DNA from: Bdellovibrionota bacterium FG-1
GTDB lineage: Bacteria; Bdellovibrionota; UBA1018
Assembly: GCA_051382295.1 (NCBI GenBank)
Contig: JBBCAW010000028.1
Coordinates: forward strand, 1-43,363
Length of the DNA: 43,363 nt
Reading direction: 5' to 3'
The notes under the pieces are model-generated. The model was not told the DNA's origin and ran no database searches. It worked only from the letters and a program-made list of their open reading frames with translations. Of this stretch, positions 10,500 through 32,861 are shown piece after piece. Made by a program: the position numbers and the translations under genes. The first letter of the stretch is position 1. The number at the start of each line of letters is the position of its first letter.

Positions 10500-10502
10500 A
10501 AG

Positions 10503-10847: not shown

Positions 10848-10860
10848 AGGTACCCCCTTG

Positions 10861-13045: not shown

Positions 13046-13049
13046 GACA

Positions 13050-14741: not shown

Positions 14742-14754
14742 GGGCTGCTACAAG

Positions 14755-14875
14755 AGCAGGTGTTGTGCCAGGATGTGTGCGTTGATAGGCTCGTGAAATT
14801 ACAACGATTGGGATTTTTTATTGAGGGCGGATGAGGCCGGAAAGTCTACGTGGTGAGACTTGGGCGTAGACTTTC
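14755..14875 (-). promoter_or_regulatory. Sigma54 promoter P1 (traG-mob-int operon) with IHF-like site and palindromic UAS
   Basis: TGGCACAACACCTGCT at 14770-14755; IHF-like site at 14786; GAAAGTCTAC-N16-GTAGACTTTC at 14840-14875. Confidence 0.85.
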
Positions 14876-14943
14876 TGGGCGTCTGAGCTCGGATTGTTCG
14901 GTGCAACGACGATAAACGCAGACCTGCCGGGGTGGGAAGTTTA

Positions 14944-16257
14944 TCATTTCACTTCTGTCCAGAGGCCGTCTTCGACACGTCTGACCTTGGAAAAGTGTTC
15001 GTCAAATTCATCGCAATGGAAGCTATGAATCGGAATGATTGCTTTGGGGGCGACGGCTTCCACGAGTCTTTTGAGGTCACTCAGGTAAGCATGGCCAGAA
15101 CAATGAATATGAATGGGGCCACGAATCTCATTGATTGCGAGGAAGTCAGTAACATCGGTCATTCTTGGTAAATATCCACGCCAGAGTGAGTAGATGTAAG
15201 AAGCGCCGTTGAGGGCCTTTGTTGAAATACCAGAGGGCCATTCTGGGTCAAAGTCTCGAATCAGGCTGCCTCTGAAGCAGAATGTGAATAATTCGGGCGC
15301 TCTCGAAATTTCGTGAGCCAGGATCTGATGAACACGCAGAGGTGCAATTTGTCTATCTTGCGCTCTATTCCGAAGTGCGTTCCGGAGAAACGCGCGGTTC
15401 ATATAGACCTTTACGCCGTCCCAGCCAGGCTGAGGAAGACTGCTGACATTCAGAGCCTTAAATAGGCTGGCGGTATAGCCATCCATGACCAAGGTTCTTC
15501 CGGCCTTCAGGGTTGCTCGATAGATTGTTACCATTCGATCAATGTTCTGCGAACTTGCCTGGACGAGCACTAGGCCCGAAGTGTTTTTCATCTCGTCGAG
15601 AAAGAGGGGTTCGAGTTCCTGTTCTGTGACGTACTTCTCGTCACGCCCAATCATCGTACCTTCCATAAGAAACGAATCGATCTCCTTCGGAAGTGAGCGG
15701 ATTAAACTGTCCAGGCACCAGTGCTTCCGTCCGTGGCCTCGAAAGTCACCAGAATAGAATAGTCTCTGGTCATCAGCCTCTATTAAGAGCGCATAGGCGT
15801 CAAAGGCTGAGTGATCCATGAGAAACGGCGTGATGCGAAAGGGGCCGATTTCGAACGGATGCCGATCTGTATAGTGGTGCGGACTTCTAATCCCGGTTTT
15901 CATCGGAGTGTACTCTTCGGTGATCCTGATCAAGGTTGCGGCTTTTTCGCCCATGTAAAACGGGATACTTTCATGCACAAAGCGGGAAAGTCCGTAGTGA
16001 TCAATGTGCGGATGTGAAATGACGACGGCTTGGATTCCTGATGGGCTCCCATCATACAAACCCGGCAACTCGGGCAGGACTTTTTCTTGCACTAACTCGG
16101 TTACGCTTCTGCTTAGAATTTCGCGCGAAGAGAACGGGCCTTCTTCTGGCAGTGTTAGTGGCATGCCAATATCAAGAATGATTTTCTTTCCCTGAGCTTC
16201 GACCTCAATGAGATTTCCGCCAATCTCGTTCGCTCCGCGGTGGATTCGATATTTCAT
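14944..16257 (-). CDS. MBL-fold/beta-CASP (RNase J-like) metallo-hydrolase
   Basis: RGANEIGGN, SHPHIDH, DHSAFDA, SGDFRGHG, IHCSGHA, IPIH. Confidence 0.9.
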   Translation of the reverse strand: MKYRIHRGANEIGGNLIEVEAQGKKIILDIGMPLTLPEEGPFSSREILSRSVTELVQEKVLPELPGLYDGSPSGIQAVVISHPHIDHYGLSRFVHESIPFYMGEKAATLIRITEEYTPMKTGIRSPHHYTDRHPFEIGPFRITPFLMDHSAFDAYALLIEADDQRLFYSGDFRGHGRKHWCLDSLIRSLPKEIDSFLMEGTMIGRDEKYVTEQELEPLFLDEMKNTSGLVLVQASSQNIDRMVTIYRATLKAGRTLVMDGYTASLFKALNVSSLPQPGWDGVKVYMNRAFLRNALRNRAQDRQIAPLRVHQILAHEISRAPELFTFCFRGSLIRDFDPEWPSGISTKALNGASYIYSLWRGYLPRMTDVTDFLAINEIRGPIHIHCSGHAYLSDLKRLVEAVAPKAIIPIHSFHCDEFDEHFSKVRRVEDGLWTEVK

Positions 16258-17132
16258 ATGGCACCTCCGTTAATCAATTCGCAGTGGCACAGGGTGGGAA
16301 GATCGAAATTGCCGGTGCTCAAGAGCGCTAAGCGAATTTTGTGCTTAGAATATTCAAGGCGTTCCTTGAATCGTCCAAGAAGACGGCTTTTGGGGTTATA
16401 GGCGTATAGGACGGTGAGCGCCTGCACGGGTTGATTTGGGTCAATGTTTGGCATGTTTTCCGGCAAGAGGCCTAATTCTACTTTCTGTCGAATCATCCGG
16501 TTGAAAGAAATAATGAGAGTGTTCAAGGGATGTTCCGAATTTTCGCAAAACATTTGAAAGTACGGTGGGATTTGCTGATGAAGGCGCTGAATGCTGTTAT
16601 CCAGGCCAACCTTCAGTTCTGTAAGTACGAGCCCCCTGGACTCGCGGTCCACTCCCAACATGTCTAGCCGAGGTGCGCTTCCGTTCACACGAGCCTGACG
16701 GTCAAAGATCACTATACGAGAACTGTGGATCGAATTTGCTTTTGCGATGGCGTCCTCAATTCGGCCCTCGTCGCCCGTAAGAGGCATCGCATTGGCGGAA
16801 ATTGCGTTACGCTTTGCGCTCAGCCAATCAATGGTTGATCTGTCACACTCAAAACGGAAGTAATCGCCACTGTCCGACAGAGGTTTGGGCGGTAAAGTGA
16901 TCTGTTCGAGGTACTTTTTGTGAATTTTGACGGAATGGGAGTCGGTGAGACGGTCGTATGTGACCTCTGCTAAACAAGCTGCACCGTCGTATAACTTGAC
17001 TGTGTCGCGCGCTCCGAAATTGAGGCACCAATGCCCGGCCTTAGCCTCTTCTACCAGGGGGTGCAAGATCCCTGCTTTAAGCGCCTGAAACATCTGCTCT
17101 GATAACTCACGATATACTTGGTTTGTTTTCAT
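16254..17132 (-). CDS. PD-(D/E)XK nuclease-like hypothetical protein
   Basis: E..IE, RLDMLGV...LVLTELK...Q...Y; GGAGG RBS before ATG 17132; ATGA overlap with the MBL gene. Confidence 0.6.
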   Translation of the reverse strand: MKTNQVYRELSEQMFQALKAGILHPLVEEAKAGHWCLNFGARDTVKLYDGAACLAEVTYDRLTDSHSVKIHKKYLEQITLPPKPLSDSGDYFRFECDRSTIDWLSAKRNAISANAMPLTGDEGRIEDAIAKANSIHSSRIVIFDRQARVNGSAPRLDMLGVDRESRGLVLTELKVGLDNSIQRLHQQIPPYFQMFCENSEHPLNTLIISFNRMIRQKVELGLLPENMPNIDPNQPVQALTVLYAYNPKSRLLGRFKERLEYSKHKIRLALLSTGNFDLPTLCHCELINGGAI

Positions 17133-17301
17133 AAAAGCCTCCATACAAACCAGTTTACGCGATGCGTTATAAAACAGCAACTATAATTATATTATAATTT
17201 CAGTCCCATATAAAACAAGCACTTAGAACGATATCTATATGGAAATCCATAGATGTATATTTGATGATAACTGCAAATAGGCGTAGAATTGAGGGTAGCT
17301 A

Positions 17302-17646
17302 ATGGAGGCGGCAGCGATGAAAAAGGAAACAGACGAACAGTATTTTACTTCGGATAATAGGCTCTCTGAAAAAGGGAAAACCGCCGCTAGCAAGATATTG
17401 CTGCGTACTAATGAGGAAATTCAAAGGATCGGTGGCGTATCGAAGGCTGCTGTCTATAAATGGAACGCCAAAGAAAAGCCTGCGCCGATCTCGCCTAGGG
17501 GTAAAAGTGCTTTTCTGCGGTTGATTCAGAGCATTGATGAGCCTTCCGCGAAAAGAACTGGAAAAGCAATGTCGCTCTCCCAGGTGGCTACTGATGAACT
17601 TATAAGAGAACTGAAACGGCGCGGGGCGCGCCAAATACTTTTCTGA
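17302..17646 (+). CDS. Small HTH-like regulator, divergent from the nuclease pair
   Basis: NEEIQRIGGVSKAAVYKW HTH-like segment. Confidence 0.55.
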   Translation: MEAAAMKKETDEQYFTSDNRLSEKGKTAASKILLRTNEEIQRIGGVSKAAVYKWNAKEKPAPISPRGKSAFLRLIQSIDEPSAKRTGKAMSLSQVATDELIRELKRRGARQILF

Positions 17647-17681
17647 ACGGTCGACACATCGGCGAAACAGGCTATTTCACA

Positions 17682-19028
17682 TTATTGTTGTGTGGAACTA
17701 CAAAACATCCCATCCGCGCAGTCATTCATCCTCGCCGCATGTGACGCCCTGGTCTCGGTCCCGCTCTGCGTAACAAGGTTCGACCGCGTGGCTTCGTCCT
17801 GCGCCGCGAGCCCCTCGGCGGTGATGTATTGCATGACCTCACCCACTGGTTTGGCCTGCTCCTGCCGGAGCCGGAGCGTGAGATCGACCTGGTCCTTGAG
17901 CGACTGGCGTTTCTGCTCGATCTCCAGCTTGCGGTTGGGCGGTAGATTTGGATTCTGTGCGGCCACCGTGAGTACGTCGATCGAGCGATTCATATCGCGG
18001 CTAAACGCCTGCATTGCCATCGCCTGCGAGAGCTTCAGGCAGACACGGTCGCGCCGCAGCTTGGGAAGATAGGATAGATTTCTGACCACATCTGGCGTGA
18101 GCATGGGCGTTTCTTCCTCGCCTGACGCTGACGGCAGCGCCTTCATCCGACGAGCAATCTCGTCATCAGGAATGAACTGCGCGCTTGTCGCGAGCTCGGG
18201 CAGGAGCTTTCCGCAAAACGCCTGGGAAATCTGCTCCTCCATCGAAAGAAGGTAGGATCTCGGTGAATAAGCGTGCGCGCGCGGACCATATTCGACGCGC
18301 ACGTTTCCGTTCGTAAGTACGGTATCGCCCACGATTGATTGAAGAAGTCCGGTGACCCGGTCGCCCTCGGCACCTGAGAAACCGGCCCAACGAGTTGAAT
18401 CCGCGAGAAGTTGATTGGGACGATTGGGGTCGTCAGACCGCCCGGCCCACGCGCCAGCCTTTTTCTCAAAGACTCCATTTTGGCAAGAAGCCATGGCCGA
18501 CTCCATGTCGCCGCCATTGGCCTCGATCGAGCGATGAACACAGGACTGGCGTTCGCGGTAATAATCCTCAACGCGCGAATCGACGTACTTATCCATGATC
18601 TGGCACTGGTTCAGGCGAAGGCCCGCGATGAAATTTGCGGAGACCTGAGTGTGCTTGAGGATCGCGCACCAGGTTGGCGACATATAGCAAGCCGCGAGCA
18701 TCGGCGCGCTTCCTAGAATGTCCTGCGCCATTCCCTTGAAGTAATCTCCATTCAAGACCTTACCAAACGCAGCGCGAAGGGTTCCGTCGATGCTGATCTT
18801 GCCGCAATCTGCGCCGATGGCGAGATTTACGCCGAGGTCGATCGGCTTCATCATCTCAAATAGATCATTGCGCCTCTCTGGATTGGGCGCATAAAGATAA
18901 TCTTGGGGCTTTAGGCGACCCTGCCAGCGCGCGTCTGCGCCTGCGAACCCGAAGCTGTCAGCAGCGAAAGCACTGGGGTTTGCGACAACGAGCGCTGTGA
19001 TCCACGCAAATCTTAGCATTGGCTTCAT
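17682..19028 (-). CDS. TraH-like periplasmic T4SS protein
   Basis: Signal peptide, GADCGKISID (compare TraH AGCGGID), cysteine-rich, coiled-coil C-terminus; follows traC. Confidence 0.55.
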   Translation of the reverse strand: MKPMLRFAWITALVVANPSAFAADSFGFAGADARWQGRLKPQDYLYAPNPERRNDLFEMMKPIDLGVNLAIGADCGKISIDGTLRAAFGKVLNGDYFKGMAQDILGSAPMLAACYMSPTWCAILKHTQVSANFIAGLRLNQCQIMDKYVDSRVEDYYRERQSCVHRSIEANGGDMESAMASCQNGVFEKKAGAWAGRSDDPNRPNQLLADSTRWAGFSGAEGDRVTGLLQSIVGDTVLTNGNVRVEYGPRAHAYSPRSYLLSMEEQISQAFCGKLLPELATSAQFIPDDEIARRMKALPSASGEEETPMLTPDVVRNLSYLPKLRRDRVCLKLSQAMAMQAFSRDMNRSIDVLTVAAQNPNLPPNRKLEIEQKRQSLKDQVDLTLRLRQEQAKPVGEVMQYITAEGLAAQDEATRSNLVTQSGTETRASHAARMNDCADGMFCSSTQQ

Positions 19029-21667
19029 GTTGCGCCTCCTTGTTCCGGCGCGAGTGCCTCGACCATCAATCCCTCCGTCGTGCCTTCCGGATATCGCGCG
19101 ACCAAATCCTCGAGCGCACGATGCGGTTCAGTCGGGAATGCCTTCAAAGTACGTTCGGCTTCCAAGGCATCAGGCCGATGGGTGGGCATGAGCCATAATT
19201 CGTGTGCCGAAGGAACACTGCGGAATACCCCAGCGAGAGCCTGTGTCTTGTGAATGTAAAACGCATCGGCGTAGCGCCCGCGCTCGGTGCGCAGGCTTTT
19301 TACGATCTGGGTCGCCGCCTCACCCAATAGCTCCGAGTTCTTCGCAATAAAGTTCACGTTGTCGTCTTTCATCGAGAGGAAGAGAAAGTGGTCCGCCACG
19401 GCCCACATCGCTTGACCTGCTGCCGTGTCGAAATAGTTTCTAGGATTTGGGGTCAGACCGATCAAATAAAACCCGAGCTTCCGAAACGTCTCAGCCGCGT
19501 CGATGACAAAGTCCTTCGCAACGGGGTTGTTGCGCCCGAGCATCCCGAGTTCTTCGATCACGATGAACCCACCGCGGCTTCTGGCCTCGTCGTTCTTGAT
19601 CTTGCGGCGAATGTCATCAACCACGCTCATGGTCATCAGCGTCTGGAGCACGGGCTCGCCGGAAAGGGCGTCCAGGTCATAAACATAGAGATCGGCCAGG
19701 CGGTCGGAACCTTTGCGACGCTCCGATCCACGGAAAAACGGGCCAAAAACGCCGTCTGAGTAGAAGGGCCGCAGTTTTTTGGCGAGATCATCGACAGCTT
19801 GGCCGTATTTCTCGAACTCGGGCTGACCGGTCAAGGTGCCAAGCTGAGAAATTACATCGTCTATGCACACGTCGGAAGCGGCGTCCCCGCCGCCCGCAGC
19901 GGCATCGAGAAGTTCACCGGCAACATATCGGACGCCTGCCGTTTGGGTCCGCACCTCGTATGCCTGTCGAATCGCCTGCGTGATGCAGGTCGTGTGCTCA
20001 GAGTCGAACTCGAACTTGGGTGAAGTCAGTTGAATCGCGGCGGTCAGGAGTTTGACGAGAAAGCCTAGCTTTTCCTCGTCTAGGACGCCGCGAAACGGCG
20101 AAAACGGCATGGGCTTGCCATGCTCGAAAACAGTAAGCTCTGACGGCAGAAATTTCGAGACCATCCCGTAGCTCGTCTTGTGGTCGATGACGAAGATCAG
20201 CGGCTTGGGGTCTCGCCGCAGCTCACCCAGGAGCATCAGGATAACTTGGCCGCTTTTGCCTGAACCCGTATCGCCCAAGACGGCGGTCATGTGCGAGTTG
20301 CCGTGAGTCCGAAGCGAAAAAGGCACGATGCCGTTTTCCCGCGATAAAAAAAGCGACCCACCGCCAGCCACCATCGGGCAGCCGCGAAAAGTATCAAAGA
20401 CCGGACAGAAATGAACGATATCAGAGGCTAGGATCTTTACGCCCCGTTGGGCGGTGTAATCCGCGATTGGATGATACTGGAGCGGCAACGAATTGAGCCA
20501 CAGGCCAAAACCGATTTCTTTTTCGACGAGCGCCTCGCATTCCAGCCGTTGCTGAAAACGGGCCAGACATTCCTGCGTGCGTTGATCGAGGTCGTCTTGA
20601 GAGTCACCTTCGATCAAGAGAGTGAACGTCATGCGCAGCACGCGGTCATCGCGGAGAAGTTGGTCTTGCAGACCCTCGATCTCGGCTTTCTGCCGCCTGG
20701 CACGGGCGGTAGGCGTATTTTGAAGAAAAAACTCCTTCAAGGCGAAGTGACGTTTGACTGCTGCCGATTTCGGAAAGGACACGTTAACGGAGAGACGAAA
20801 TGGAAAATCGAGGCCGAGGAAATAGGCCATGGCCCCAGGGTACGCAAACGACGGAGCATTTTTGAGGGAGATCGTGCGCGTGGTCACGCCCTCGCGGGTT
20901 ATCCCCGGATAATCGACCCGGCTGGGACAGAAGATAACCTGCTCCGAAAGTGATAGGCCCGGATTCACTGGCGAGAAGGGGCGCTTGTAATACGTTACCG
21001 GGTTGAACGTCCTTCGCAAAAAATCGGTCAGATCGGCTGAATTGAGCCGCTTGAGTGGCAGCGGTGAGGTCAGCTCAAACTGCGACAACGAATGATTGAA
21101 GGCTCGCGCTTGCCTCAGAAAACTCTGAAGCTCGTTCGAGAGGGTTGCATGAGTATTGCCAATCTCGGAGGCGACGCGACCGAGTTTAGCTTTCGCGGAA
21201 GAAGTTTTCTCAAACTGCCGCACTGAAAGATAGAGCGTGCGTCGCATAGGCACTCCGCTGCCACGCAGTCGCTCGACCTGGGCGAGATGTAGGCTTGCCG
21301 GTACGTCGCCGCGACTCCGGTCGGCCCCGGTCACGCTGCGATCCCATTCGCGATCAAACGGCGAGATAACCGACTGATCGAAGAGCAGCGACAGCGTGAC
21401 ATCATCGGGAAGTCTAAACCACGAACGAAGACCCTCCAGCAATGTCACGATCTCTTGAGACGTTTTGGTTTCGTGTTCACAAAGCGCAACCTCATATACG
21501 ACACCTAAAGAGCCATCTTTCTGCCGAAATAATCCAAGTTCCGCGACATATTCGTCATAGGTCAGGAAGTTCGCTAAGCTATCGGGGCGCTCCAGGAACG
21601 CACGAGCGAAAACTTCGTGCTTCGATAATGCGTCGTGAAGGATCTTAGGAAGATCGGTCGTTTTCAT
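19025..21667 (-). CDS. traC: TraC/VirB4 ATPase
   Basis: 880 aa; Walker A GDTGSGKS, FVIDHK.SY, IEELG, FRKLG; NSLPL motif. Confidence 0.85.
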   Translation of the reverse strand: MKTTDLPKILHDALSKHEVFARAFLERPDSLANFLTYDEYVAELGLFRQKDGSLGVVYEVALCEHETKTSQEIVTLLEGLRSWFRLPDDVTLSLLFDQSVISPFDREWDRSVTGADRSRGDVPASLHLAQVERLRGSGVPMRRTLYLSVRQFEKTSSAKAKLGRVASEIGNTHATLSNELQSFLRQARAFNHSLSQFELTSPLPLKRLNSADLTDFLRRTFNPVTYYKRPFSPVNPGLSLSEQVIFCPSRVDYPGITREGVTTRTISLKNAPSFAYPGAMAYFLGLDFPFRLSVNVSFPKSAAVKRHFALKEFFLQNTPTARARRQKAEIEGLQDQLLRDDRVLRMTFTLLIEGDSQDDLDQRTQECLARFQQRLECEALVEKEIGFGLWLNSLPLQYHPIADYTAQRGVKILASDIVHFCPVFDTFRGCPMVAGGGSLFLSRENGIVPFSLRTHGNSHMTAVLGDTGSGKSGQVILMLLGELRRDPKPLIFVIDHKTSYGMVSKFLPSELTVFEHGKPMPFSPFRGVLDEEKLGFLVKLLTAAIQLTSPKFEFDSEHTTCITQAIRQAYEVRTQTAGVRYVAGELLDAAAGGGDAASDVCIDDVISQLGTLTGQPEFEKYGQAVDDLAKKLRPFYSDGVFGPFFRGSERRKGSDRLADLYVYDLDALSGEPVLQTLMTMSVVDDIRRKIKNDEARSRGGFIVIEELGMLGRNNPVAKDFVIDAAETFRKLGFYLIGLTPNPRNYFDTAAGQAMWAVADHFLFLSMKDDNVNFIAKNSELLGEAATQIVKSLRTERGRYADAFYIHKTQALAGVFRSVPSAHELWLMPTHRPDALEAERTLKAFPTEPHRALEDLVARYPEGTTEGLMVEALAPEQGGAT

Positions 21668-25156: not shown

Positions 25157-25168
25157 GGGCGCCTCCGC

Positions 25169-25480: not shown

Positions 25481-26003
25481 TGCCTGACTCCCGATCTGCG
25501 GCGGGCCTAGTCTCTGGCATCTTGAATCGAGCGACGTACTGATCGCGGTTGATGAACTCGACCTGCGAGAAGACGCTGCTTGAACCGCTGATTGAGAAAA
25601 TGTTTTTGACCCATGTTGGAGCGGTTCCGAACAGGAGTGCGGAGACAATTGCGACGACGGCACTTCCGAATCGGGCCTCTTTTAAACTCCAGGCGGCGCC
25701 GCCAACACAAAGGCCGCAAAGGAGTCGCGCCACCCATCCGAAAATTGCCGTGTCGAGAAATTTAAGAAGAGTGCCGGCGCCTTCCATCTGAGCAGATATG
25801 TCATCGCCGGGGAGGCGAACGGTACCGGCGAACGCGGTATATGGATCGAGCACCATCACGAACACATAGACCATGACGGCAAGTTCTATGATGATCAGGA
25901 CCGGTGCGAGTCGATAGATAAAGTCGATGGCGCCGACGAGCCATCGATCCACCCAGGTTAGATCGGGATGATGGGACAAGATTTGCGATTCCGTGGTTTT
26001 CAT
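25473..26003 (-). CDS. Pilin (TraA/VirB2-like) precursor
   Basis: Long leader ending AFA, two hydrophobic helices, first gene before traL; GAGAGG RBS. Confidence 0.65.
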   Translation of the reverse strand: MKTTESQILSHHPDLTWVDRWLVGAIDFIYRLAPVLIIIELAVMVYVFVMVLDPYTAFAGTVRLPGDDISAQMEGAGTLLKFLDTAIFGWVARLLCGLCVGGAAWSLKEARFGSAVVAIVSALLFGTAPTWVKNIFSISGSSSVFSQVEFINRDQYVARFKMPETRPAADRESGNA

Positions 26004-26040
26004 TTTGGCCTCTCTCTTTCTCAAAGCTGCAAACGAGAAG

Positions 26041-26161
26041 AGCAGAGACCGTGCCAGCGCAGGGCTTTCGGTAAGTGCGCGAGATGATGATGGTCAGGGT
26101 TTTTTGGCTAACGTGATTTCAGTGGGAAAGTCTACGTGGTGAGACTTGCGCGTAGACTTTC
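26041..26161 (-). promoter_or_regulatory. Sigma54 promoter P2 (pilin-traH operon) with IHF-like site and UAS
   Basis: TGGCACGGTCTCTGCT at 26056-26041; IHF-like site at 26072; palindrome at 26126-26161. Confidence 0.88.
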
Positions 26162-26463: not shown

Positions 26464-26551
26464 TTCAAGTCACTCTTTTACCTGCCACCAAGATAACTCG
26501 AAAAACAGCGTCACAACGGCTTGATATTACTCATAATTACATATTCGTACA

Positions 26552-27409
26552 TCATCTTTTGTCCGAAAGTGCCCCCAACACCGCCGCTGCCGTCTGATAC
26601 CCCTGCATCTTGAAGAACGACTTCTTCTGAATATCCCCAATCAGCAACACCGGCACGCTCTCGATCCCGTATCGCTTCAGCTCCTCGGGCGGCGCCGGAC
26701 TCACTGGGAACGGAATTTTAGCGCGTGCGGCCTCGTCGCGATCAACTTGTCGCAGTTCGATCCAATAACCGAGCGCGGAAAGCTCGCGGATTGTCGTTGA
26801 GAGCATGTGCTCGCAATGCGGACAGTGGGAGTCGAAATAGAGCCGCAACCGAAACCGCTTGGCGTCGGGACGTGGCGCAGGTGCTCCGCCAATCCGAGCC
26901 GATGCGCGCGCGACGGCCGCCGGGGCCTCGGCAGCAGCGCTGACCATGGCCGCCGGTAGTGCCGGCATGTTTGGCGGCAAACTCTGGCCGTGGTTCGCGG
27001 CGTAGGCCGTGAGCTTTTCTTGAAGCCGGTGAAGAAGCTGATTCTTCGTTTCCAGGTAGTGAAACCAATTTTCGATATTCGAGTCCGTGGGATTACGGGC
27101 GATCTCCATGAACGGCGCGGGCGGTGTGTAATCGCCTTCGCGGAAAAACTCGTCGTTCTTGGGGTCACTATATTTCTGCCACGGAAACGTGCCCACACCT
27201 GGCTGCGCTGCCCCCTTTGTGGGGGCCGCCAGCGGTCGAACCGCACCCAGTGTCGATGTTGCGCCGCCTTTCGGTGCAGCCTGCTTCCAGTAATCTAGAT
27301 CCGGCTCGCCAAAATACGAAAACTCCGAGCCCGCCGCGAGCGCGTTGACGGTGAGAAGCAGCATGTAGAGCGGCCCGGCGCAGAGACTACGCCGCTGAGA
27401 GGATCTCAT
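26552..27409 (-). CDS. TraF-like thioredoxin-domain pilus assembly protein
   Basis: Signal peptide, ARNPT..NI..W TraF-like motif, LYFDSHCPHC CxxC, YGIESVP; GAGGTG RBS. Confidence 0.7.
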   Translation of the reverse strand: MRSSQRRSLCAGPLYMLLLTVNALAAGSEFSYFGEPDLDYWKQAAPKGGATSTLGAVRPLAAPTKGAAQPGVGTFPWQKYSDPKNDEFFREGDYTPPAPFMEIARNPTDSNIENWFHYLETKNQLLHRLQEKLTAYAANHGQSLPPNMPALPAAMVSAAAEAPAAVARASARIGGAPAPRPDAKRFRLRLYFDSHCPHCEHMLSTTIRELSALGYWIELRQVDRDEAARAKIPFPVSPAPPEELKRYGIESVPVLLIGDIQKKSFFKMQGYQTAAAVLGALSDKR

Positions 27410-28484
27410 AGGCATCCACCTCACCGCTATTTCCGAGCTTGAGCATCGCCTCTTGCAGCGACGGTGACTTACGCCCCGTCGTCGGCTCCACGTATTCAAA
27501 GACGGGAAGACGACCGACGATTCCGCGCTGGCAGCCAGAGCAATCGCCTTGGTGGGGACCACGCGTCCAAAGTGGCCCGTCTCCGTATTCTGGGCCACCA
27601 AAGAACTCGTGTCGTTCACGGTCATTCACGATCCGCTTGCAGGTCGGACACAGTTTCGCCAGCAACCGCTGGGCAGATGCAAACCGCAGAAGCGATGTCA
27701 CCTGGTCCTCGCGAATACCCAAGCCCATGAGTCGGCCCGTGACTTCGCGGGCATTATTCGCGTGAAGCGTAGAGAGCACGAGATGCCCGGTCGCCGCAGC
27801 CTGAAAACACAGTTCGGCGGTCTCGCGGTCCCTCACTTCGCCGACGAGAATTACATCCGGGTCCTGCCGCATCATCGCGCGCAGCGCATCGCCATAGCCG
27901 AGCTTCGGCGAGACCTGAATCTGGGTGATGCTCGGGAATGTGTATTCCACCGGGTCTTCGATCGTGACGATGTTGAGACTGGCGCGGTCAAGGGCCGCGA
28001 GGGCCGAGTAGAGAAGCGTGGTCTTGCCGCTGCCCGTGGGGCCGGTGATCAGACATACGCCCGATCCTTGTTTGAGTGCGCGATTTACGGCACGCTGCGC
28101 GTCTTCCTCAAGATTCATGGCCGCAAGGTCAAAGGAGCGGGCCTTATCGAGGAGTCGCAAGACGAGCTTTTCACCGTGAATTGTGGGCACCAGGCTCACC
28201 CTGACATCGAGGTTGAGTTCCGGCACGCTGATCCTTGAATCCTGTGCGCGAAGACTCACGGCCACCGAGCATTGGCTCAACCGCTTTGCCTCTTGCAAGA
28301 AGGGCGCTTTATGGACCTGTGCGATGTTCTTCCACGCAATGAGGTCGCCGTTCACCCGAAAGCGAATCCTCACGCTCTCGCGATCCGGTTGAATATGAAT
28401 ATCCGAAGCGCCCAGGCCCTTGGCCTGCGCGATCATGTCCCAATACAGACCCGCGTATGGATTTTCGTTACCAAGATCACTCAT
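27387..28484 (-). CDS. GspE/PulE/PilB-family secretion ATPase (short form)
   Basis: ASDIHIQP, IRFRVNG, GEKLVLRLL, GPTGSGKT, TIEDPVE, RQDPDVILVGEVRD, TGHLVLSTLH, tetra-Cys motif. Confidence 0.93.
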   Translation of the reverse strand: MSDLGNENPYAGLYWDMIAQAKGLGASDIHIQPDRESVRIRFRVNGDLIAWKNIAQVHKAPFLQEAKRLSQCSVAVSLRAQDSRISVPELNLDVRVSLVPTIHGEKLVLRLLDKARSFDLAAMNLEEDAQRAVNRALKQGSGVCLITGPTGSGKTTLLYSALAALDRASLNIVTIEDPVEYTFPSITQIQVSPKLGYGDALRAMMRQDPDVILVGEVRDRETAELCFQAAATGHLVLSTLHANNAREVTGRLMGLGIREDQVTSLLRFASAQRLLAKLCPTCKRIVNDRERHEFFGGPEYGDGPLWTRGPHQGDCSGCQRGIVGRLPVFEYVEPTTGRKSPSLQEAMLKLGNSGEVDAYEILSAA

Positions 28485-28485
28485 A

Positions 28486-31400
28486 TTAAATTCCCCCACC
28501 CGGAACGGCCTGACAGGCCAGTAGAAGTGCCGCTATTTCAATGGCTGCCGCCGGGGCTTCCGGTATGTCCTGACAGCAGCTCACCTTTTTCCAGACCGTA
28601 AAAAGATAGCCATTGGGTTTCCCAAACATGCGTTGCTCCTCGCGCACGCCCTTCAGGGTTTCAAGTGCGCCCAGATTCTGTCCTTCCCGAAAACAAGAAG
28701 AGCCTTGCGGGTACAGCATTTGCCAGACCTCATCGGGATCGCTTGGGACGGTGTGACTGACTTCCGTGCCGATACTTTTGAGACGCGCGGCGATCATGAG
28801 TGCCGCGCCCGCGCGCGAAGCACCGTGATAGACCCCATAGCGCGGAAAGAAGACGCCCCAACCGTTACAGGCATCGCGCGAAGAGGGCGGATACTTGGGC
28901 AGTGGAAGAGGAAAACTACAACCGCCGCCGCCACCGAACGCAGGGGTACCAGCGCCAGCCAAACCTTCCGCAGCGCCCTTGAGGATGCACGCTTTGGGCG
29001 ATAGGCTCCATGCAAGAAAAGACGGCTGAAGAGAGTCGGCAGTTCCTATGCCCCATTGTTTCCCGAGGTCTTCGCTCATCAGATCAAAACAGGGCATTTC
29101 GGCTCGTGCGCCCTGGCACGGTAAAGCCGAGAAGACCGGGCTTGCCAGTGGCACAGCAATTGATCGGGCCTGAAAAGCGAAAGTGCCATTGTCGTCCTCT
29201 ACACCGAATGGAATTGGCACGCCCGTGTGATGGAGCGCAAGCTGCGCGGCGGCCGGGTGTTGACCAAAAAATGTATCTTTGGAGTTGGGCCAAACTTCGA
29301 GGAACGTCTGTGGGACGTAATACGAGATTTGGGCGCACGGCCTGGGGATCGGCCAGCCGCACATGCACATTCCGACGTTAAAATTCAGGCAGGACATGAA
29401 TTCCGAGGAGCGGATGACCGAGCATACGTTCGGAAAAAGTACGGCGGCCCGGGCGACCTGTGATGCGGGGGCCATGAAGATGAACACGCCGAGACCAATG
29501 ACGACCGTCGTTGCAAAAAAGGACCGCGTCTTGCGTGGAACCTGCGCGGCCTTTCGCAGAATTTTCATGATCGCACGGTGCGAGATTCTCATGGTCTTTA
29601 GGAAATAGGGTTTGAGAAAAAGCTTCTCGAATTGCGTTTCCACCCCGTTAAAAATCTGCGCGAAGGCTTCAAAAGGACGCAACCGCGAAAATTCGCGCGC
29701 GGTGACCGGAAATTCCTGCGTGGTGTGCGTCGAAACACTCTCACTTCGGCTGGTCCGATTGGAGTTCTGCCCGCCGAATAGGAGATCGGGCCGCGTGTTC
29801 TGCGCGCTTTCCGAAGAACTGTGAGACTGCCGCTCGCGATCGACCTGGCCGTGGGGCTCCTGAAAAAGACGGATCGTTTTAGTGTCGGTCGAATTTCCGA
29901 AAATACGCGTGCGAAAATTCTGTAAAATCTCGCGCGTGGCGGGCTCGCTACGAATGGCGTTCTCCAGGGAACTCACGCTTTGGGTGGCCGCGATCGTTAT
30001 GGCCTTCGACTCGCGAGCCTTGGCGAGATAGCGGTCGTCGCCCAATCCGGCGCCACCGCCGCTTGTCGCCACGTCTTGGTATTCGTCCATGACAAGCACC
30101 GCATAACGAGTGTCTGGGGCGTTTGCCTCATCGACCCGTGCCAGTACGGCCTCTTGATAGAGCAGTTTAAAGAGCGTTCCGATGGAGCGGGCCAGGGAAT
30201 CGTTTTCGATATTGAGGCAGATCAGTTTGCCGTCCCTTACGGCCTGGGCGATTGAATGCAGGGTGATTTCGTTTCGTGCAGGCGACAGGATTTGGGAGAC
30301 GCGGTATTCCAAAAATTCATTCAGGAAGCCTGTTGCCGTGGCGAGAATGCTGGTGCGAATCTTCTGATCCATTTGCGAAAACTCTTCTTTGAAGTAATTG
30401 ATCGCCATTGTGATGTTGTCGCGTTCCTCGGGGGTCCATTCGCGGGTGGCCAGGCAGTCGGCCAGCTCCGCCGCGAGCCCCTCGTCACGCGCCTGGATCA
30501 GGGCGCGATACAACTCACGGAAAGTAAAATATTCGAACTTTGTGGCGCAGTAGACGAGGGAGTTCTTGAGTAGGTTGAAACTCGCTTGTTCCCAAAAGCG
30601 GTTGTCCGATGAGCTGCCGAGAAAGTTTACCGAAGCTAGCCGCAGGCTATTTGCGATACTGGTGAAGGCCGAGTTGCGGAGCATTCCTTCACGCCAAATA
30701 GGATTGAATTTCACAGAGCCTTCAAGGGATACCCAGAGCAAATGTTCGGTCATGCCCTGAGCTTCGATGATCTTGCGCAACTCGCTGACGAAAGTTCTTT
30801 TGGGGTCAATCGCGAGGAGCGATGGTCTAATCGAAAAGAACGCTAGGATTTGCTGCAAAAGACGCAGAAGGATCTGCGACTTCCCAGACCCGATCGATCC
30901 AGAAAGAAAAAGGTTACCCGTCAGGCCACGGAGCCCCTGGTAGACCCATTTCGCCTTATGGCTTTCTCCAGCCAAGGTGGGATTTGGTTCCTCATAAATT
31001 GCACCGAGGATAATCCCGTCTTGAATGGCGTCGATCCGGGGCAACCGCCCTGTCGGAATCGGTAAAATGCGAATGAGTTGTCGGAAACTCAATTGAATGG
31101 CGATCATCGCTCCAATGCCTGCGACGCCCACGTTGGCGATGAAGATGCCTTTCAGGTGGGCTGTGGATAGGGCGAACGGAAGAAGGTCGAGGCGGTGAAG
31201 CGCACACTGATGGGTGGCAAGGTACCAGCCCCCGAGGTTGGCCAAGGTGTAGGCGGCAATATATTGCGCGATGATGATTGCGAGTTTTCGACGGTGATCC
31301 TGCTCGGTCTCACTGGGGCTGCTCACTCGAAGCGATTTTGTGTACCGCTTTGCAGCCACCCCAATCCAGATGATGTTGCCAAGCAGCACCGCCGCGAACA

Positions 31401-31590
31401 CGAGGAGCGGTGTGGAATTGATTTCGCCAAACCAAGCGAGGCGGCTTGCAAGAAGCTCCGTCGCGCGTGGGCTTTTTAGCCAAAAGAAAAGGGCCGCAAC
31501 ACCGCCCGCCGCAAGAAGGGCAGCGGGGAGAGGAATATCAGGATTTTTTGCGCCAGGTAGAGCGTTAGGGCGGGTTGCGGCTTCAGTCAT
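28486..31590 (-). CDS. TraD/VirD4-like coupling protein fused to a C-terminal TraU-like domain
   Basis: N-terminal TMs, GSIGSGKS, IDPK, LVMDEYQ, ATQS; then TM and CMC..PIPRPC..YYVP..FLEV, WG.FFPR.G, WQMLYP, VWKKVSCC; ATGA overlap with ssb. Confidence 0.8.
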   Translation of the reverse strand: MTEAATRPNALPGAKNPDIPLPAALLAAGGVAALFFWLKSPRATELLASRLAWFGEINSTPLLVFAAVLLGNIIWIGVAAKRYTKSLRVSSPSETEQDHRRKLAIIIAQYIAAYTLANLGGWYLATHQCALHRLDLLPFALSTAHLKGIFIANVGVAGIGAMIAIQLSFRQLIRILPIPTGRLPRIDAIQDGIILGAIYEEPNPTLAGESHKAKWVYQGLRGLTGNLFLSGSIGSGKSQILLRLLQQILAFFSIRPSLLAIDPKRTFVSELRKIIEAQGMTEHLLWVSLEGSVKFNPIWREGMLRNSAFTSIANSLRLASVNFLGSSSDNRFWEQASFNLLKNSLVYCATKFEYFTFRELYRALIQARDEGLAAELADCLATREWTPEERDNITMAINYFKEEFSQMDQKIRTSILATATGFLNEFLEYRVSQILSPARNEITLHSIAQAVRDGKLICLNIENDSLARSIGTLFKLLYQEAVLARVDEANAPDTRYAVLVMDEYQDVATSGGGAGLGDDRYLAKARESKAITIAATQSVSSLENAIRSEPATREILQNFRTRIFGNSTDTKTIRLFQEPHGQVDRERQSHSSSESAQNTRPDLLFGGQNSNRTSRSESVSTHTTQEFPVTAREFSRLRPFEAFAQIFNGVETQFEKLFLKPYFLKTMRISHRAIMKILRKAAQVPRKTRSFFATTVVIGLGVFIFMAPASQVARAAVLFPNVCSVIRSSEFMSCLNFNVGMCMCGWPIPRPCAQISYYVPQTFLEVWPNSKDTFFGQHPAAAQLALHHTGVPIPFGVEDDNGTFAFQARSIAVPLASPVFSALPCQGARAEMPCFDLMSEDLGKQWGIGTADSLQPSFLAWSLSPKACILKGAAEGLAGAGTPAFGGGGGCSFPLPLPKYPPSSRDACNGWGVFFPRYGVYHGASRAGAALMIAARLKSIGTEVSHTVPSDPDEVWQMLYPQGSSCFREGQNLGALETLKGVREEQRMFGKPNGYLFTVWKKVSCCQDIPEAPAAAIEIAALLLACQAVPGGGI

Positions 31591-32006
31591 TGGGCTACCC
31601 CCTCTCCAGTCCATTGGTCAAACGTCGGTCCGGGTGCCTCGCCTGTTTTTTCATCGCGTGCCGCACGCAAACGCTCGACTTTGAGTACGTCGGAGGCCAC
31701 GATCTCGAAGGCCAACCGTTTGGTGCCGGCCTTGTCGGTGTAGGGGCTAACTTTAAGTTCGCCGGCCACGAGAAGTAGATCACCTTTGCGCGCGTTAGCG
31801 ACGACACGATCGCCGAGGCTTCCGAAGCAGGTTATGCGGAACCATTGGGGCTCACGCTGAACCCGTTCGCCGGAGTCGGCATCGACCCCGCTCACGTTTT
31901 GCGCGATGGCAAAAGCCACGACGCTTTTTCCTGATTTCGTCTTAGCTCGCGCCTCCGGTGCTTCGCCGACGTTTCCGATGACTGTGATTTGATTGCTTGT
32001 GTTCAT
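31587..32006 (-). CDS. ssb: Single-stranded DNA-binding protein
   Basis: NQITVIGNVG..PE, WFRITCFG, KGDLL.V.G.L...Y.DK.G. Confidence 0.92.
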   Translation of the reverse strand: MNTSNQITVIGNVGEAPEARAKTKSGKSVVAFAIAQNVSGVDADSGERVQREPQWFRITCFGSLGDRVVANARKGDLLLVAGELKVSPYTDKAGTKRLAFEIVASDVLKVERLRAARDEKTGEAPGPTFDQWTGEGVAQ

Positions 32007-32014
32007 AATTTCCT

Positions 32015-32473
32015 CTATCCGTTGAAGCCATTCATGGTGCCAATGAGCGGGACCCAGACGCCGCGCTCGTAATTCTCCTCAAAAGCCGTAAACTTTGGGT
32101 TATCGAAGGGCGATGGATACTTCCCGAACACCTCGTTGACTGCGCCTTCAAGTAATTCGCGACGGAACATGAATTTTGGATAAGCCGTGACGAGAGCTGT
32201 GTAAGCATTGGGCCACAGGGCCTTGATCCGGCGCGATAGCTGTAGGCCGACACCGCGAACAGAACCAAAATCCTGATCGAGGTAAAACCTCTCGTGCCCA
32301 CGGAATACGTCTCGCCCGATGTCGTCGAGGAACCACTCCGCATCGGGATAGGTCATGAGCGAAATCCCCTTCGCCCGTGAGATGCGCAGCCATTCGTCGC
32401 GAATCGCCTGCTCTTCTTCGACAAGGACGTAGGTCACTGGTTCACTGCTCGGAGACATAGTTTGCGGGTTCAT
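32015..32473 (-). CDS. Stand-alone atypical receiver (CheY-like) domain protein
   Basis: YVLVEEE, FYLDQDFG...GLQL...IK, ALVTAY; TGATG overlap with the upstream ORF. Confidence 0.65.
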   Translation of the reverse strand: MNPQTMSPSSEPVTYVLVEEEQAIRDEWLRISRAKGISLMTYPDAEWFLDDIGRDVFRGHERFYLDQDFGSVRGVGLQLSRRIKALWPNAYTALVTAYPKFMFRRELLEGAVNEVFGKYPSPFDNPKFTAFEENYERGVWVPLIGTMNGFNG

Positions 32474-32679
32474 CAGTGGAACCCTCGTCCCATGAAGCGA
32501 CATCTGGCGTCGTTGCGATACCGCGCAAGCCGCTCTTCCGGGGTTTCGTGGTTCGCATCTTCAAATTCTGTCGGGATTCCGGTTGATTCACTGCTCTCTG
32601 GAAAAAGAGTTCGGATTATCCGAGAAATCCTGCTTTTCAGCGCTACCAGTGAGTTTTTGATTTCGTCTTCTTGGTTCAT
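32473..32679 (-). CDS. Small hypothetical protein, first gene after promoter P3
   Basis: GGAGAG RBS before ATG 32679; translationally coupled to the next gene. Confidence 0.6.
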   Translation of the reverse strand: MNQEDEIKNSLVALKSRISRIIRTLFPESSESTGIPTEFEDANHETPEERLARYRNDARCRFMGRGFH

Positions 32680-32740
32680 TTTGCTCTCCATCTCGTCTAT
32701 TGCCCACATGGGCAGGGTTGAACTTTCGGAGAGTTCTAAG

Positions 32741-32861
32741 AGCAGGTGATGTGCCAAAATGAAGCGGGAGCTAACTGGCGGAAATGATGGAGTTGAGGTG
32801 TTTTTAAGATAGGCAATTGGGCGGTGAAAGTCTACCGGCAGAGACTTGTGTGTAGACTTTC
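32741..32861 (-). promoter_or_regulatory. Sigma54 promoter P3 (receiver-ssb-coupling protein operon) with IHF-like site and UAS
   Basis: TGGCACATCACCTGCT at 32756-32741; IHF-like site at 32772; palindrome at 32826-32861. Confidence 0.85.

What the first reader, a model, noticed from the sequence alone, without database searches (positions are those of the whole stretch)
14755..32861. All three transfer operons start at architecturally identical sigma54 promoters
Seen: minus-strand TGGCAC-N6-TGCTCTT (GG-N10-GC) boxes at 14755-14770, 26041-26056 and 32741-32756. In each case an IHF-like TA(A/G)-N6-GA(A/G)AT site begins exactly 16 bp beyond the -24 box (14786, 26072, 32772), followed by a T-tract. 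A 36-bp palindrome, GAAAGTCTAC-N5-GAGACTTG-N3-GTAGACTTTC, begins exactly 70 bp beyond it (14840, 26126, 32826). Each promoter heads a transfer operon: traG-mobC-relaxase-xis-int; pilin-traLEKBVCH; receiver-ssb-T4CP-ATPase-traF. Established: a -24/-12 box, IHF site and UAS about 100-130 bp upstream of the start is the classical enhancer-dependent sigma54 layout. The well-studied conjugation activators (TraJ, SetCD/AcaCD, TraR) act through sigma70. Inference: this is a sigma54 conjugation/excision regulon.
Basis: partly seen in the sequence, partly recalled or inferred. Interest (0 to 1): 0.92.

Follow-up and report, generated by a model that had tools for sequence, protein, structure and literature searches.

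The report
Sigma-54 switch driving a conjugative element
A mobile DNA element in an uncultured bacterium appears to turn on all of its DNA-transfer and excision genes through three identical sigma-54 promoters, each with the same upstream activator site, a form of conjugation control that did not turn up in the literature searched.

Summary
TGGCAC-N6-TGCTCTT boxes (canonical GG-N10-GC) lie at 14752-14770, 26038-26056 and 32738-32756 (-). Each has the 36-bp palindrome exactly 70 bp upstream, without indels. The genome holds two more such units on other contigs.

Conservation is island-like: UAS 0.85, A-tract 0.77 and -24/-12 0.81, against 0.23-0.35 in the spacers.

The element encodes a REC-AAA+-HTH sigma-54 activator (40606-42117) and a histidine kinase. 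The host has one rpoN and IHF-like genes.

In relatives, an activator gene lies upstream of the coupling-protein operon in 9 of 9 loci with more than 3 kb of upstream DNA. The operon heads there carry a different UAS (GAGACTC repeats) matched to a different activator HTH.

Caveats:
- There are no expression data.
- The 'IHF' motif matches the IHF consensus no better than chance.
- The sister elements' -24/-12 boxes are 1-2 bp too closely spaced.

Verdict: probably a two-component, sigma-54-dependent conjugation/excision regulon. No such control appeared in five literature searches. An earlier AI note of this scan (e1-7419302) reported a similar switch on other DNA.

The parts
14752..14770 (-). 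Sigma-54 -24/-12 box P_traG (TGGCACAACACCTGCTCTT). Predicted start near 14744. The traG ATG at 14741 would be at +4.
14840..14875 (.). UAS 1: a 36-bp palindrome with a central AAGTCTC, centred about -114.
14786..14819 (-). Conserved A6 tract (14814-14819) and ATTTC-N6-YTA motif (14786-14799) between UAS and promoter. Candidate bend or IHF region.
8652..14741 (-). Operon 1: TraG_N 13257-14741, MobC/NikA 12689-13114, relaxase 10861-12702, two unknown ORFs 10131-10847, xis (HTH_17) 9875-10096, tyrosine integrase 8652-9860.
26038..26056 (-). Sigma-54 -24/-12 box P_pil (TGGCACGGTCTCTGCTCTT). Predicted start near 26030.
26126..26161 (.). UAS 2: the same palindrome at the same distance.
14944..26003 (-). 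Operon 2: membrane protein, possibly the pilin, 25473-26003; TraL, TraE, TraK, TraB; TraV-like; TraC 19025-21667; TraH-like; two unknown ORFs; MBL/RMMBL hydrolase 14944-16257.
32738..32756 (-). Sigma-54 -24/-12 box P_t4cp (TGGCACATCACCTGCTCTT). Predicted start near 32730.
32826..32861 (.). UAS 3: the same palindrome at the same distance.
26552..32679 (-). Operon 3: small ORF 32473-32679, receiver-like 32015-32503, SSB 31587-32006, T4CP-TraU fusion 28486-31614, GspE/PilB-like ATPase 27387-28499, TraF-like 26552-27625.
40606..42117 (-). Element-encoded sigma-54 activator: REC, AAA+ domain (GTFTGA loop) and C-terminal HTH. Proposed binder of the UAS.
36049..38343 (-). Membrane histidine kinase with an unknown periplasmic domain, HAMP, an H-box and HATPase. 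Proposed partner of the activator.
42199..42221 (.). Inverted repeat GAGACTT-N9-AAGTCTC just upstream of the activator gene. It has the same core as the central UAS site and is a candidate autoregulatory site.

Best explanation
The window is a putative integrative and conjugative element. Its three transfer operons are: (1) traG-mobC-relaxase-xis-int; (2) pilin-like gene, traL/E/K/B/V/C and more; (3) receiver-like gene, ssb, T4CP-TraU, ATPase, traF-like gene. Each is transcribed from an enhancer-dependent sigma-54 promoter.

Proposed mechanism:
1. The element's own membrane histidine kinase (36049-38343) senses an unknown signal.
2. It phosphorylates the element's NtrC-type activator (40606-42117).
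3. The activator assembles on the three AGTCT-core sites of the 36-bp UAS, centred about -114.
4. A fixed, A-tract-containing spacer, possibly bent by IHF, brings the activator to the sigma-54 holoenzyme waiting at -24/-12.
5. ATP hydrolysis opens the promoter.

All three promoters share one UAS at one distance, so mating-pore assembly, DNA processing and excision would switch on together, with little basal expression.

Shown by sequence: the motifs, their rigid spacing, the gene content, the presence of rpoN and the IHF-like genes, and the family-wide linkage to an activator gene. Inferred: which protein binds the UAS, dependence on sigma-54, the start sites, and any role of IHF.
For: - Three perfect boxes with canonical spacing and three perfect palindromes at a fixed 70-bp offset; 0 palindromes were expected by chance.
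- Five such units genome-wide align without indels. Conserved islands stand in otherwise unrelated sequence: 0.85 / 0.77 / 0.81 against 0.23-0.35.
- The host uses the same N5 spacing: 46 sites, against 6-15 at other spacings. It has one rpoN.
- The activator has REC, Sigma54_activat (2.3e-62) and AAA_lid domains. By eye (my reading) it has Walker A and B motifs, an R-finger and an HTH. The kinase has HAMP, an H-box and HATPase.
- In 9 of 9 related loci with more than 3 kb upstream of the T4CP gene, an activator homologue lies 1-4 kb upstream. It was seen in 0 of the 18 loci with less upstream DNA (27 loci examined).
- A sister class of elements has 14 promoter units, in 6 external loci and 3 contigs of this genome. 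They sit at the same operon heads and have a different UAS (GAGACTC x4). Their activators share a different, conserved HTH. Both classes co-reside in this genome, each with its own activator.
- In the 12 of those 14 units measured, the UAS-to-promoter distance takes values one helical turn apart: 70.5 against 81.5-83.5 bp.
- 5 of the 6 AAGTCTC sites in the window lie in the three UAS or just upstream of the activator gene.
- No sigma-70-like site lies upstream of the three operon heads (6 hits in 14000-33500). In 8400-14900 there are 0 sigma-70-like hits, and the 7 terminator-like hits are all on the + strand, none on the operon's minus strand.
Against: - There is no transcript or binding data; no RNA run was listed.
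- The activator's sigma-54 contact loop reads GTFTGA, not GAFTGA. Whether that variant works is not shown here.
- Pfam HTH_8 is not detected in the window's activator at E<=0.001. The HTH is inferred from an alignment to an HTH_8-positive homologue at 31% identity.
- The activators of the two classes are only 29-38% identical, which is no closer than to the host's other activators. Orthology of the regulator across the family is therefore not shown.
- In the sister elements the -24/-12-like boxes are TGGCAY-N4-TTGCA (12 units) or N3 (2 units), that is 1-2 bp shorter than canonical. Their hosts use N5. By my recollection of work on the Klebsiella nifH promoter, such spacing changes abolish sigma-54 promoters. 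This raises a doubt about how the boxes are read in the family.
- Three distant loci with an activator gene (L025-L027) showed no -24/-12 box at my threshold.
- The exact class I UAS was not found outside this genome: 400 genomes of the phylum gave chance-level hits only, and viral contigs gave none with a box.
Confidence: 0.75

Rival explanations
1. The -24/-12 boxes are real sigma-54 promoters, but the palindrome is bound by a different protein. Candidates are one of the element's XRE-type HTH proteins (33714-34378, + strand) acting as repressor or anti-activator, or a host activator that supplies the ATPase.
For: Two XRE-like HTH ORFs lie just upstream of UAS 3. The genome encodes more than 20 other sigma-54 activators. 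The binding partner was never tested.
Against: The UAS class changes in step with the element's own activator HTH. The XRE genes lie in a low-GC stretch and were not seen next to the UAS in relatives whose ORFs were scanned. The same core repeats sit upstream of the activator operon itself, both in the window and in L010.
Confidence: 0.1
2. The TGGCAC...TGC boxes are not read by sigma-54. The conserved block is an operator plus promoter for another factor, and the resemblance to -24/-12 misleads.
For: In sister elements the two half-boxes are conserved but lie 1-2 bp closer together (N4 in 12 units, N3 in 2). Their hosts' own sites are N5. Uniform spacing within an element and variable spacing between elements is not what a host sigma-54 of fixed geometry predicts.
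Against: The window's boxes have exactly canonical spacing and a near-consensus sequence. Every element with enough upstream DNA carries a protein with a sigma-54 interaction domain. A UAS 70-115 bp upstream with helical phasing is the enhancer layout. The genome has only one Sigma54_DBD match.
Confidence: 0.1
3. The palindrome acts at the RNA level, as a 3'-end hairpin (terminator, stabiliser or processing site) of the operon that ends just upstream. It would not be a DNA enhancer.
For: All operons are co-oriented, so read-through would transcribe the palindrome. It folds at -14 to -20 kcal/mol, with z-scores of -3.0 to -4.6.
Against: No U-tract follows the stem. The stem sequence is invariant rather than covarying, and the one arm change, in the C4 copy, is not compensated. 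The loop holds a conserved AAGTCTC. The distance to the -24 box is fixed. Related core repeats lie upstream of the activator gene, where no co-oriented operon ends.
Confidence: 0.04
4. The three units are recent duplicates of one segment and are alike by descent only, with no shared function.
For: The core motifs are identical.
Against: Spacer and flank identity is at random level (0.23-0.35) while the motifs stay at 0.77-0.85. Paralogous units in a second element, whose proteins are 79-87% identical, keep the motifs and spacing while the flanks diverge.
Confidence: 0.01

Closest known systems
Classical enhancer-dependent sigma-54 promoters (NtrC at glnAp2, NifA at nifH with IHF, XylR at Pu of the TOL plasmid); details recalled
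   Same: GG-N10-GC box, activator sites about 100-130 bp upstream, bent DNA in between, and an AAA+ activator that is often the response regulator of a two-component system.
   Different: The targets here are a type IV secretion/conjugation machine, the relaxase and xis-int. The UAS is a 36-bp unit with three AGTCT-core sites. The candidate IHF site does not match the IHF consensus.
PilS-PilR control of the type IV pilin promoter through sigma-54 (recalled)
   Same: A kinase plus an NtrC-type regulator drives a pilus-subunit operon from a sigma-54 promoter. A GspE/PilB-like ATPase is in this regulon.
   Different: This is a conjugative F-like T4SS (TraC, TraB, TraE, TraL, TraK) on a mobile element, and three operons are co-regulated.
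CTnDOT RteA-RteB (Bacteroides conjugative transposon)
   Same: An element-encoded two-component system gates excision and transfer (passages read in PMC5812530). That RteB is NtrC-like is my recollection.
   Different: RteB acts on one promoter (P_C of rteC), and a cascade follows (RteC, then xis2c-xis2d-exc). No -24/-12 promoter at tra operons is described in the passages I read. Here the activator site sits directly on every transfer operon.
Master activators with a common box at each tra operon: SetCD (SXT), AcaCD (IncA/C), VirA-VirG vir boxes (Ti plasmid); recalled, and listed in the search results
   Same: One element-encoded activator, or two-component system, has an identical operator in front of several transfer operons.
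   Different: Those work with sigma-70 promoters. This one has sigma-54 boxes and an AAA+ activator.
Sigma-54 control of other secretion machines (HrpR/HrpS for T3SS, VasH-type activators for T6SS), cited in PMC3162934
   Same: An AAA+ activator and sigma-54 switch on a large envelope machine.
   Different: The word stem 'conjugati' does not occur in the main text of that sigma-54 survey. A T4SS or conjugation target appears to be unreported in what I searched.
   Same: It proposes a sigma-54 promoter on a conjugation operon, with a palindrome shared with the element's sensing operon. This fits the GAGACTC-type sister class that I saw in Bdellovibrionota-type MAG loci.
   Different: That note concerns other DNA and the other UAS class. 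It is an unchecked AI note and not independent evidence.

Membership tests
sigma-54 (RpoN) dependent promoter | GG and GC doublets 10 nt apart (TGGCAC-N5-TTGCW) | tested here: met
   TGGCAC-N5-CTGCT at all three sites. The same spacing is enriched in the host: 46 sites, against 6-15 at other spacings.
sigma-54 (RpoN) dependent promoter | Host encodes sigma-54 | tested here: met
   One Sigma54_DBD match, 219 bits, on contig C12.
sigma-54 (RpoN) dependent promoter | Activator binding sites roughly 80-150 bp upstream | tested here: met
   Palindrome centred about -114, at a fixed distance in 5 of 5 units.
sigma-54 (RpoN) dependent promoter | Transcription requires rpoN and an AAA+ activator | not testable with these tools
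NtrC-family response-regulator activator (bEBP) | REC + sigma-54 interaction AAA+ domain + C-terminal HTH | tested here: met
   Response_reg 5.5e-22, Sigma54_activat 2.3e-62 and AAA_lid. The HTH is aligned to an HTH_8-positive homologue. NCBIfam ntrC scores 336 bits, below its cut-off of 558.6.
NtrC-family response-regulator activator (bEBP) | GAFTGA loop that contacts sigma-54 | tested here: inconclusive
   The loop reads GTFTGA in the window and in its paralogue on C143. Relatives have GAFTGA or GSFTGA.
IHF binding site | Match to WATCAANNNNTTR (consensus recalled) between UAS and promoter | tested here: not met
   The best match in the window units has 2-3 mismatches, which is the mode for random 70-mers. 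Sister-class units have 3 of 14 perfect matches and 3 of 14 with one mismatch. The host has IHF-alpha and an IHF-beta-like gene.
Integrative and conjugative element | Integrase, excisionase, relaxase, coupling protein and VirB4/TraC ATPase in one block | tested here: met
Integrative and conjugative element | Attachment sites or defined ends, and excision | not tested
   The window is a whole 43-kb contig. It has no tRNA gene. The ends were not sought.
F-type (MPF-F-like) conjugation system | TraL, TraE, TraK, TraB, TraV, TraC, TraU, TraF, TraH and TraG_N | tested here: inconclusive
   TraC_F_IV, TrbI/TraB and TraE score over Pfam's cut-offs. TraG_N, TraK, TraL and TraU have E-values up to 0.001 but score under the cut-offs. 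TraV, TraH and TraF are weaker still. The best plasmid relative of the T4CP is 24% identical.

The most novel reading that the evidence does not exclude
This family of conjugative elements may carry interchangeable sigma-54 switches: orthogonal activator/UAS pairs that let related elements coexist in one cell under separate control. Its members also differ in -24/-12 geometry. The window's class uses canonical N5 spacing. Sister elements conserve TGGCAY-N4-TTGCA (12 units) or N3 (both promoters of one element), although their hosts' own sigma-54 sites are N5. If those short-spaced boxes are active, then either sigma-54 holoenzyme can be driven from non-canonical spacing by these activators, or a new way of reading -24/-12 exists.
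Probability: 0.3. Interest if true: 0.8.

Novelty: new variant of a known kind. Interest (0 to 1): 0.62.

Why it matters
Conjugation is normally described as controlled through sigma-70 promoters, by repressors, by FlhDC-like or LuxR-like activators, or by OmpR-type regulators. A sigma-54 switch would differ in three ways:
- Sigma-54 promoters have almost no basal activity and need ATP-driven activation.
- One sensor kinase could therefore gate pore assembly, DNA processing and excision together, in an all-or-none way.
- This would link horizontal gene transfer to an environmental or cell-to-cell signal in poorly studied bacteria (a magnetotactic MAG, and Bdellovibrionota-type MAGs).

Two related element classes sit in one genome, each with its own activator and UAS. 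This suggests how related elements avoid cross-activation, and it offers ready-made orthogonal activator/enhancer pairs.

The short-spaced boxes of the sister elements bear directly on how strict sigma-54 promoter geometry really is.

Tried and rejected
- Expression data: the look-up of sequencing runs listed 4 DNA-type rows, each with a word share of 0.06 or less, and no RNA holder.
- The exact class I palindrome elsewhere:
  - Among 400 other genomes of the phylum, 10 had a single 1-mismatch hit. By my count of the rows, the reversed control pattern hit about 21 genomes, so this is chance level.
  - Of the 9 fetched loci, 0 had the box at the right distance. One had a TGGTAC...TGCT 57 nt away with a different layout.
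  - Viral contigs gave 84 stretches. Of the 80 read, 0 had a box or a central AGTCTC, and 70 are one phage sequence.
- IHF consensus scan of the window units: chance level.
- Plasmid database: the best T4CP relative is 24% identical, so no named relative was found.
- Rfam and tRNA scans of the window: nothing found.
- Kinase sensor domain (residues 26-290): no Pfam family even at E 0.5, so the signal stays unknown.
- Distant loci L025-L027: no -24/-12 box with at least 9 of 11 matches between the activator gene and the T4CP gene.
- Literature: five searches found no paper on sigma-54-driven tra operons or on GG-N9-GC spacing. The library lacks most subscription journals, so this is not proof of absence.
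- One call with wrong arguments was repeated correctly.

Full report
OBSERVATION

The three minus-strand boxes TGGCAC-N6-TGCTCTT lie at 14752-14770, 26038-26056 and 32738-32756. They are the only perfect matches in the window. The only other match within two mismatches is on the + strand at 4673.

The palindrome GAAAGTCTAC-N16-GTAGACTTTC occurs three times, at 14840-14875, 26126-26161 and 32826-32861. No match appeared in 100 shuffles. Each palindrome begins 70 bp beyond the T of TGGCAC.

Reading the boxes as T1-G2-G3...G14-C15 gives GG-N10-GC, the canonical sigma-54 spacing (consensus recalled).

The centre of each palindrome holds a third site, AAGTCTC, in the same orientation as the first arm.

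MORE COPIES AND SELECTION

The window is the whole of contig C28 of a 4.44-Mb, 158-contig assembly, 97.7% complete with 5.0% contamination.

Genome-wide there are two further units with the same box, palindrome and spacing:
- One on C63 heads a paralogous ssb/T4CP operon; the T4CP is 79% identical.
- One at the end of C4 stands before a deleted traG/int remnant.

The five units align without a single gap. Among the three window units, which head unrelated genes, mean pairwise identity is:
- 0.85 in the UAS
- 0.77 at the A-tract
- 0.52 in the ATTTC-N6-TTA region
- 0.81 in the -24/-12 box
- 0.23-0.35 everywhere else

This is the signature of selection on discrete protein-binding sites at fixed distances, not of recent duplication.

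GENES

Pfam and NCBIfam give the following.

Operon 1:
- TraG_N 13257-14741, MobC/NikA 12689-13114, a MobA/VirD2 relaxase 10861-12702 and a tyrosine integrase 8652-9860.
It scores HTH_17 at 1e-7, over the cut-off.
- Between 8400 and 14900 there is no sigma-70-like site, and none of the 7 terminator-like hits is on the minus strand. One transcript from P_traG through int is therefore plausible.

Operon 2:
- It begins at ATG 26003 with a 176-aa membrane protein, for which TrbC-pilin is only a lead at 0.85.
- It continues with TraL, TraE, TraK, TraB and TraC, sub-threshold TraV- and TraH-like proteins, and an MBL/RMMBL hydrolase.

Operon 3:
- It begins at ATG 32679 with a 69-aa ORF, then a 162-aa protein that looks like a receiver domain only in the language-model search (0.96; 22 of 30 hits in Response_reg sets).
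- SSB follows, then a 1042-aa coupling protein fused to a TraU domain, a GspE/PilB-like ATPase and a sub-threshold TraF-like protein.

The closest plasmid coupling protein in PLSDB is only 24% identical, so the element family is uncharacterised.

THE REGULATOR

The protein encoded at 40606-42117 has Response_reg (5.5e-22), Sigma54_activat (2.3e-62) and AAA_lid domains. In the translation I read GESGTGKE (Walker A), DEIGD (Walker B), RQDLLYRL and GNIREL. The sigma-54 contact loop reads GTFTGA. A C-terminal helix-turn-helix aligns with an HTH_8-positive homologue.

In the same apparent operon lie two methyltransferase-like genes, a YdcZ-type DMT exporter and a 764-aa membrane kinase. The kinase has HAMP, an H-box (VAHNIRSPL) and HATPase domains. 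Its 265-aa outer domain matches no Pfam family.

Just upstream of the activator gene lies GAGACTT-N9-AAGTCTC. Thus 5 of the 6 AAGTCTC sites in the window are in a UAS or at the activator's own promoter region.

The host has one rpoN, an IHF-alpha gene over its cut-off, an IHF-beta-like gene just under its cut-off, and HU.

RELATIVES

Scans with the coupling protein found 3 loci in species genomes (Oligoflexia and Bacteriovoracaceae MAGs; 59-64% identity). They also found 24 metagenome loci (31-63% identity).

Of these 27 loci, 9 have more than 3 kb upstream of the T4CP gene. All 9 encode a sigma-54 activator homologue 1-4 kb upstream. None of the other 18 loci reaches that far. Where ORFs were scanned, a kinase sits beside the activator (L008, L010).

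The window's own genome holds further related elements:
- C63/C143/C153, at 79-87% identity
- C35/C58/C14, at 50-70%
- C19, at 31-50%

A sister class of promoter units stands at the same operon heads in C35 (x2), C58, C14, L008, L010, L019 (x2), L020 (x2), L021 (x2) and L022 (x2). That makes 14 units. Each has four GAGACTC-type sites around a GAGACTCAGTCTC palindrome and then a TGGCAY...TTGCA box.

The activators of these elements share a conserved HTH (…AAEILG(L/I)SR(A/P)TFFRKAK(D/E)(L/F)GLV). It differs from that of the window's class (…ATRLGLARSTVFKRLAHLGI). The sister class in this same genome has its own activator on C75, 72% identical to those of L010 and L020.

So the UAS type and the activator's DNA-reading helix change together, and the two classes coexist in one genome. 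This is the best available argument that the element's activator binds the UAS.

In 12 of the sister units measured, the palindrome-to-box distance is 70.5 bp (3 units) or 81.5-83.5 bp (9 units). These values are one helical turn apart, as expected for face-of-the-helix looping.

WHAT DOES NOT FIT

(a) Spacing in the sister units. Their boxes are TGGCAY-N4-TTGCA in 12 units and N3 in both promoters of L020, which is 1-2 bp shorter than canonical.
- The host genomes use N5. This genome has 46 N5 sites, 15 N4 sites (5 of them the sister- and C19-class promoter boxes on C14, C19, C35 x2 and C58, plus one more on C19), and 6-9 sites at N3, N6 or N7.
- The hosts of L010, L008 and L009 have 33, 36 and 20 N5 sites, against controls of 1, 2 and 9. 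They have only 7, 12 and 9 N4 sites, against controls of 4, 3 and 5.
- By my recollection of the nifH spacing work, a 1-bp deletion kills a sigma-54 promoter, so this is unexplained.
- It does not touch the window's own boxes, which are canonical. It is, however, the main reason for not rating the sigma-54 reading higher.

(b) The 'IHF-like' motif. It is conserved in position, but it matches WATCAANNNNTTR with 2-3 mismatches, as random 70-mers do (31% and 52% of 5000 respectively).
- In the sister class, 3 of 14 units match perfectly (chance 0.4%) and 3 of 14 match with one mismatch. Five of these six lie at the same offset.
- A role for IHF is therefore plausible in the family but not shown for the window. 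The invariant A-tract could bend the DNA on its own.

(c) Distant loci. Three of them (L025-L027) have the activator gene but no recognisable box at my threshold. L039 has a canonical one and C19 has an N4 one.

(d) Distribution. The exact class I UAS was not found outside this genome.

(e) Data. There are no expression data.

ALTERNATIVES

If transcribed, the palindrome would fold as an RNA hairpin of -14 to -20 kcal/mol. Several points argue against an RNA role:
- It lacks a U-tract.
- Its stem is invariant rather than covarying.
- The single arm change, in the C4 copy, is not compensated.
- Its loop carries the conserved third site.
- It keeps a fixed distance to the box.

No sigma-70-like site precedes any operon head.

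LITERATURE

Five full-text searches found no report of sigma-54 promoters on tra operons.

- In the 2017 ICE review (PMC5812530; passages found by term search), 'RpoN' occurs once, in the title of a cited paper on symbiosis genes. CTnDOT is described there as gated by the RteA/RteB two-component system through a cascade.
- In the 2011 sigma-54 survey (PMC3162934; term search), the stem 'conjugati' does not occur in the main text, while T3SS and T6SS are named.

An earlier AI note of this scan (e1-7419302) reached a similar reading on a Bdellovibrionota element in another genome. That is a lead that agrees with mine, not independent evidence.

VERDICT

The best reading (confidence 0.75) is a two-component, enhancer-dependent sigma-54 regulon that co-activates the mating pore, DNA processing and excision of a conjugative element.

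The mechanism itself is textbook. Its use as the master switch of conjugation appears unreported in what I could search, so I rate it a new variant of a known kind.

Noticed in passing
L008:3389-3503, L010:9305-9417, L019:7935-8049 and 14244-14369, L020:9048-9200 and 16088-16201, L021:80-194 and about 6000-6118, L022:2664-2778 and 9381-9495; genome contigs C35 (22724, 11310), C58 (50331), C14 (4012): Sister elements carry GAGACTC-repeat enhancers followed by TGGCAY-N4-TTGCA (12 units) or N3 (2 units, both in L020). That is 1-2 bp shorter than the canonical sigma-54 spacing their hosts use. Spacing is uniform within an element and differs between elements.
   Followed up: partly
window 14741-14770: The traG start codon (ATG 14741) lies at +4 of the predicted start, with no Shine-Dalgarno sequence, so the mRNA would be leaderless. 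The N-terminus MYANTAYEALY is conserved in the C58 paralogue, where the ATG is at +3 of its box. It is also conserved in C19 (MFSNTAFEAMY), where the gene has a Shine-Dalgarno sequence and no promoter.
   Followed up: partly
window 28486-31614 (-): The coupling protein (TrwB/TraD-like) is fused to a C-terminal TraU-like, cysteine-rich domain. The fusion is kept in all six aligned homologues, including many invariant Cys (alignment A1).
   Followed up: partly
genome contig C14:3840-4115 (-) (locus L016): Tandem arrangement: a GAGACTC-type unit with an N4 box is followed about 150 bp downstream by a variant of the window's palindrome (GAATGTCTAC..AATGTCTAC..GTAGACATTC) and a canonically spaced TGGCACGCGAGGTGCT. 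This lies upstream of a relaxase gene 50% identical to the window's.
   Followed up: no
window 32701-32727 (-); C63 paralogue; leaders of sister-class T4CP operons (e.g. L010:9440-9462): The 5' leader of the T4CP operon holds a half-site-like GAAAGTTCAAC and a small hairpin (TGCCCATGTGGGCA). The C63 paralogue keeps a hairpin with a different sequence. Most sister-class leaders (9 of the 14 units by my reading) hold a GAGACTC- or AAGACTC-type motif, in some of them inside a hairpin.
   Followed up: no
genome contigs C63, C143, C153; C35, C58, C75, C14; C19; end of C4: One MAG holds at least three or four related conjugative elements and a remnant, each with its own activator. With 5% contamination, a mixture of strains cannot be excluded.
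   Followed up: partly
window 38349-40609 (-); L010:2571-6017: Between the activator and kinase genes lie two methyltransferase-like genes and a YdcZ (DMT) exporter. In L010 the regulatory operon holds an EamA (DMT) transporter, a radical-SAM-like protein (under Pfam's cut-off), a periplasmic binding protein and a GNAT. Small-molecule synthesis or export next to the sensor hints at a self-made signal.
   Followed up: no
window 33000-36000: A low-GC stretch (0.475-0.49, against about 0.53-0.60 in the neighbouring kilobases) lies between UAS 3 and the kinase gene. It holds two divergent XRE-type HTH ORFs (33714-34022 and 34070-34378, +) and a 501-aa protein of no known family (34402-35907, -).
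   Followed up: no
window 1-8621: The left part holds likely cargo or neighbouring mobile DNA: two YhcG/DUF1016 PDDEXK nuclease genes (1471-2487 +, 7458-8621 -), a large serine recombinase (5430-6620 +), a recombinase fragment (733-1101 -) and a NOV_C protein.
   Followed up: no
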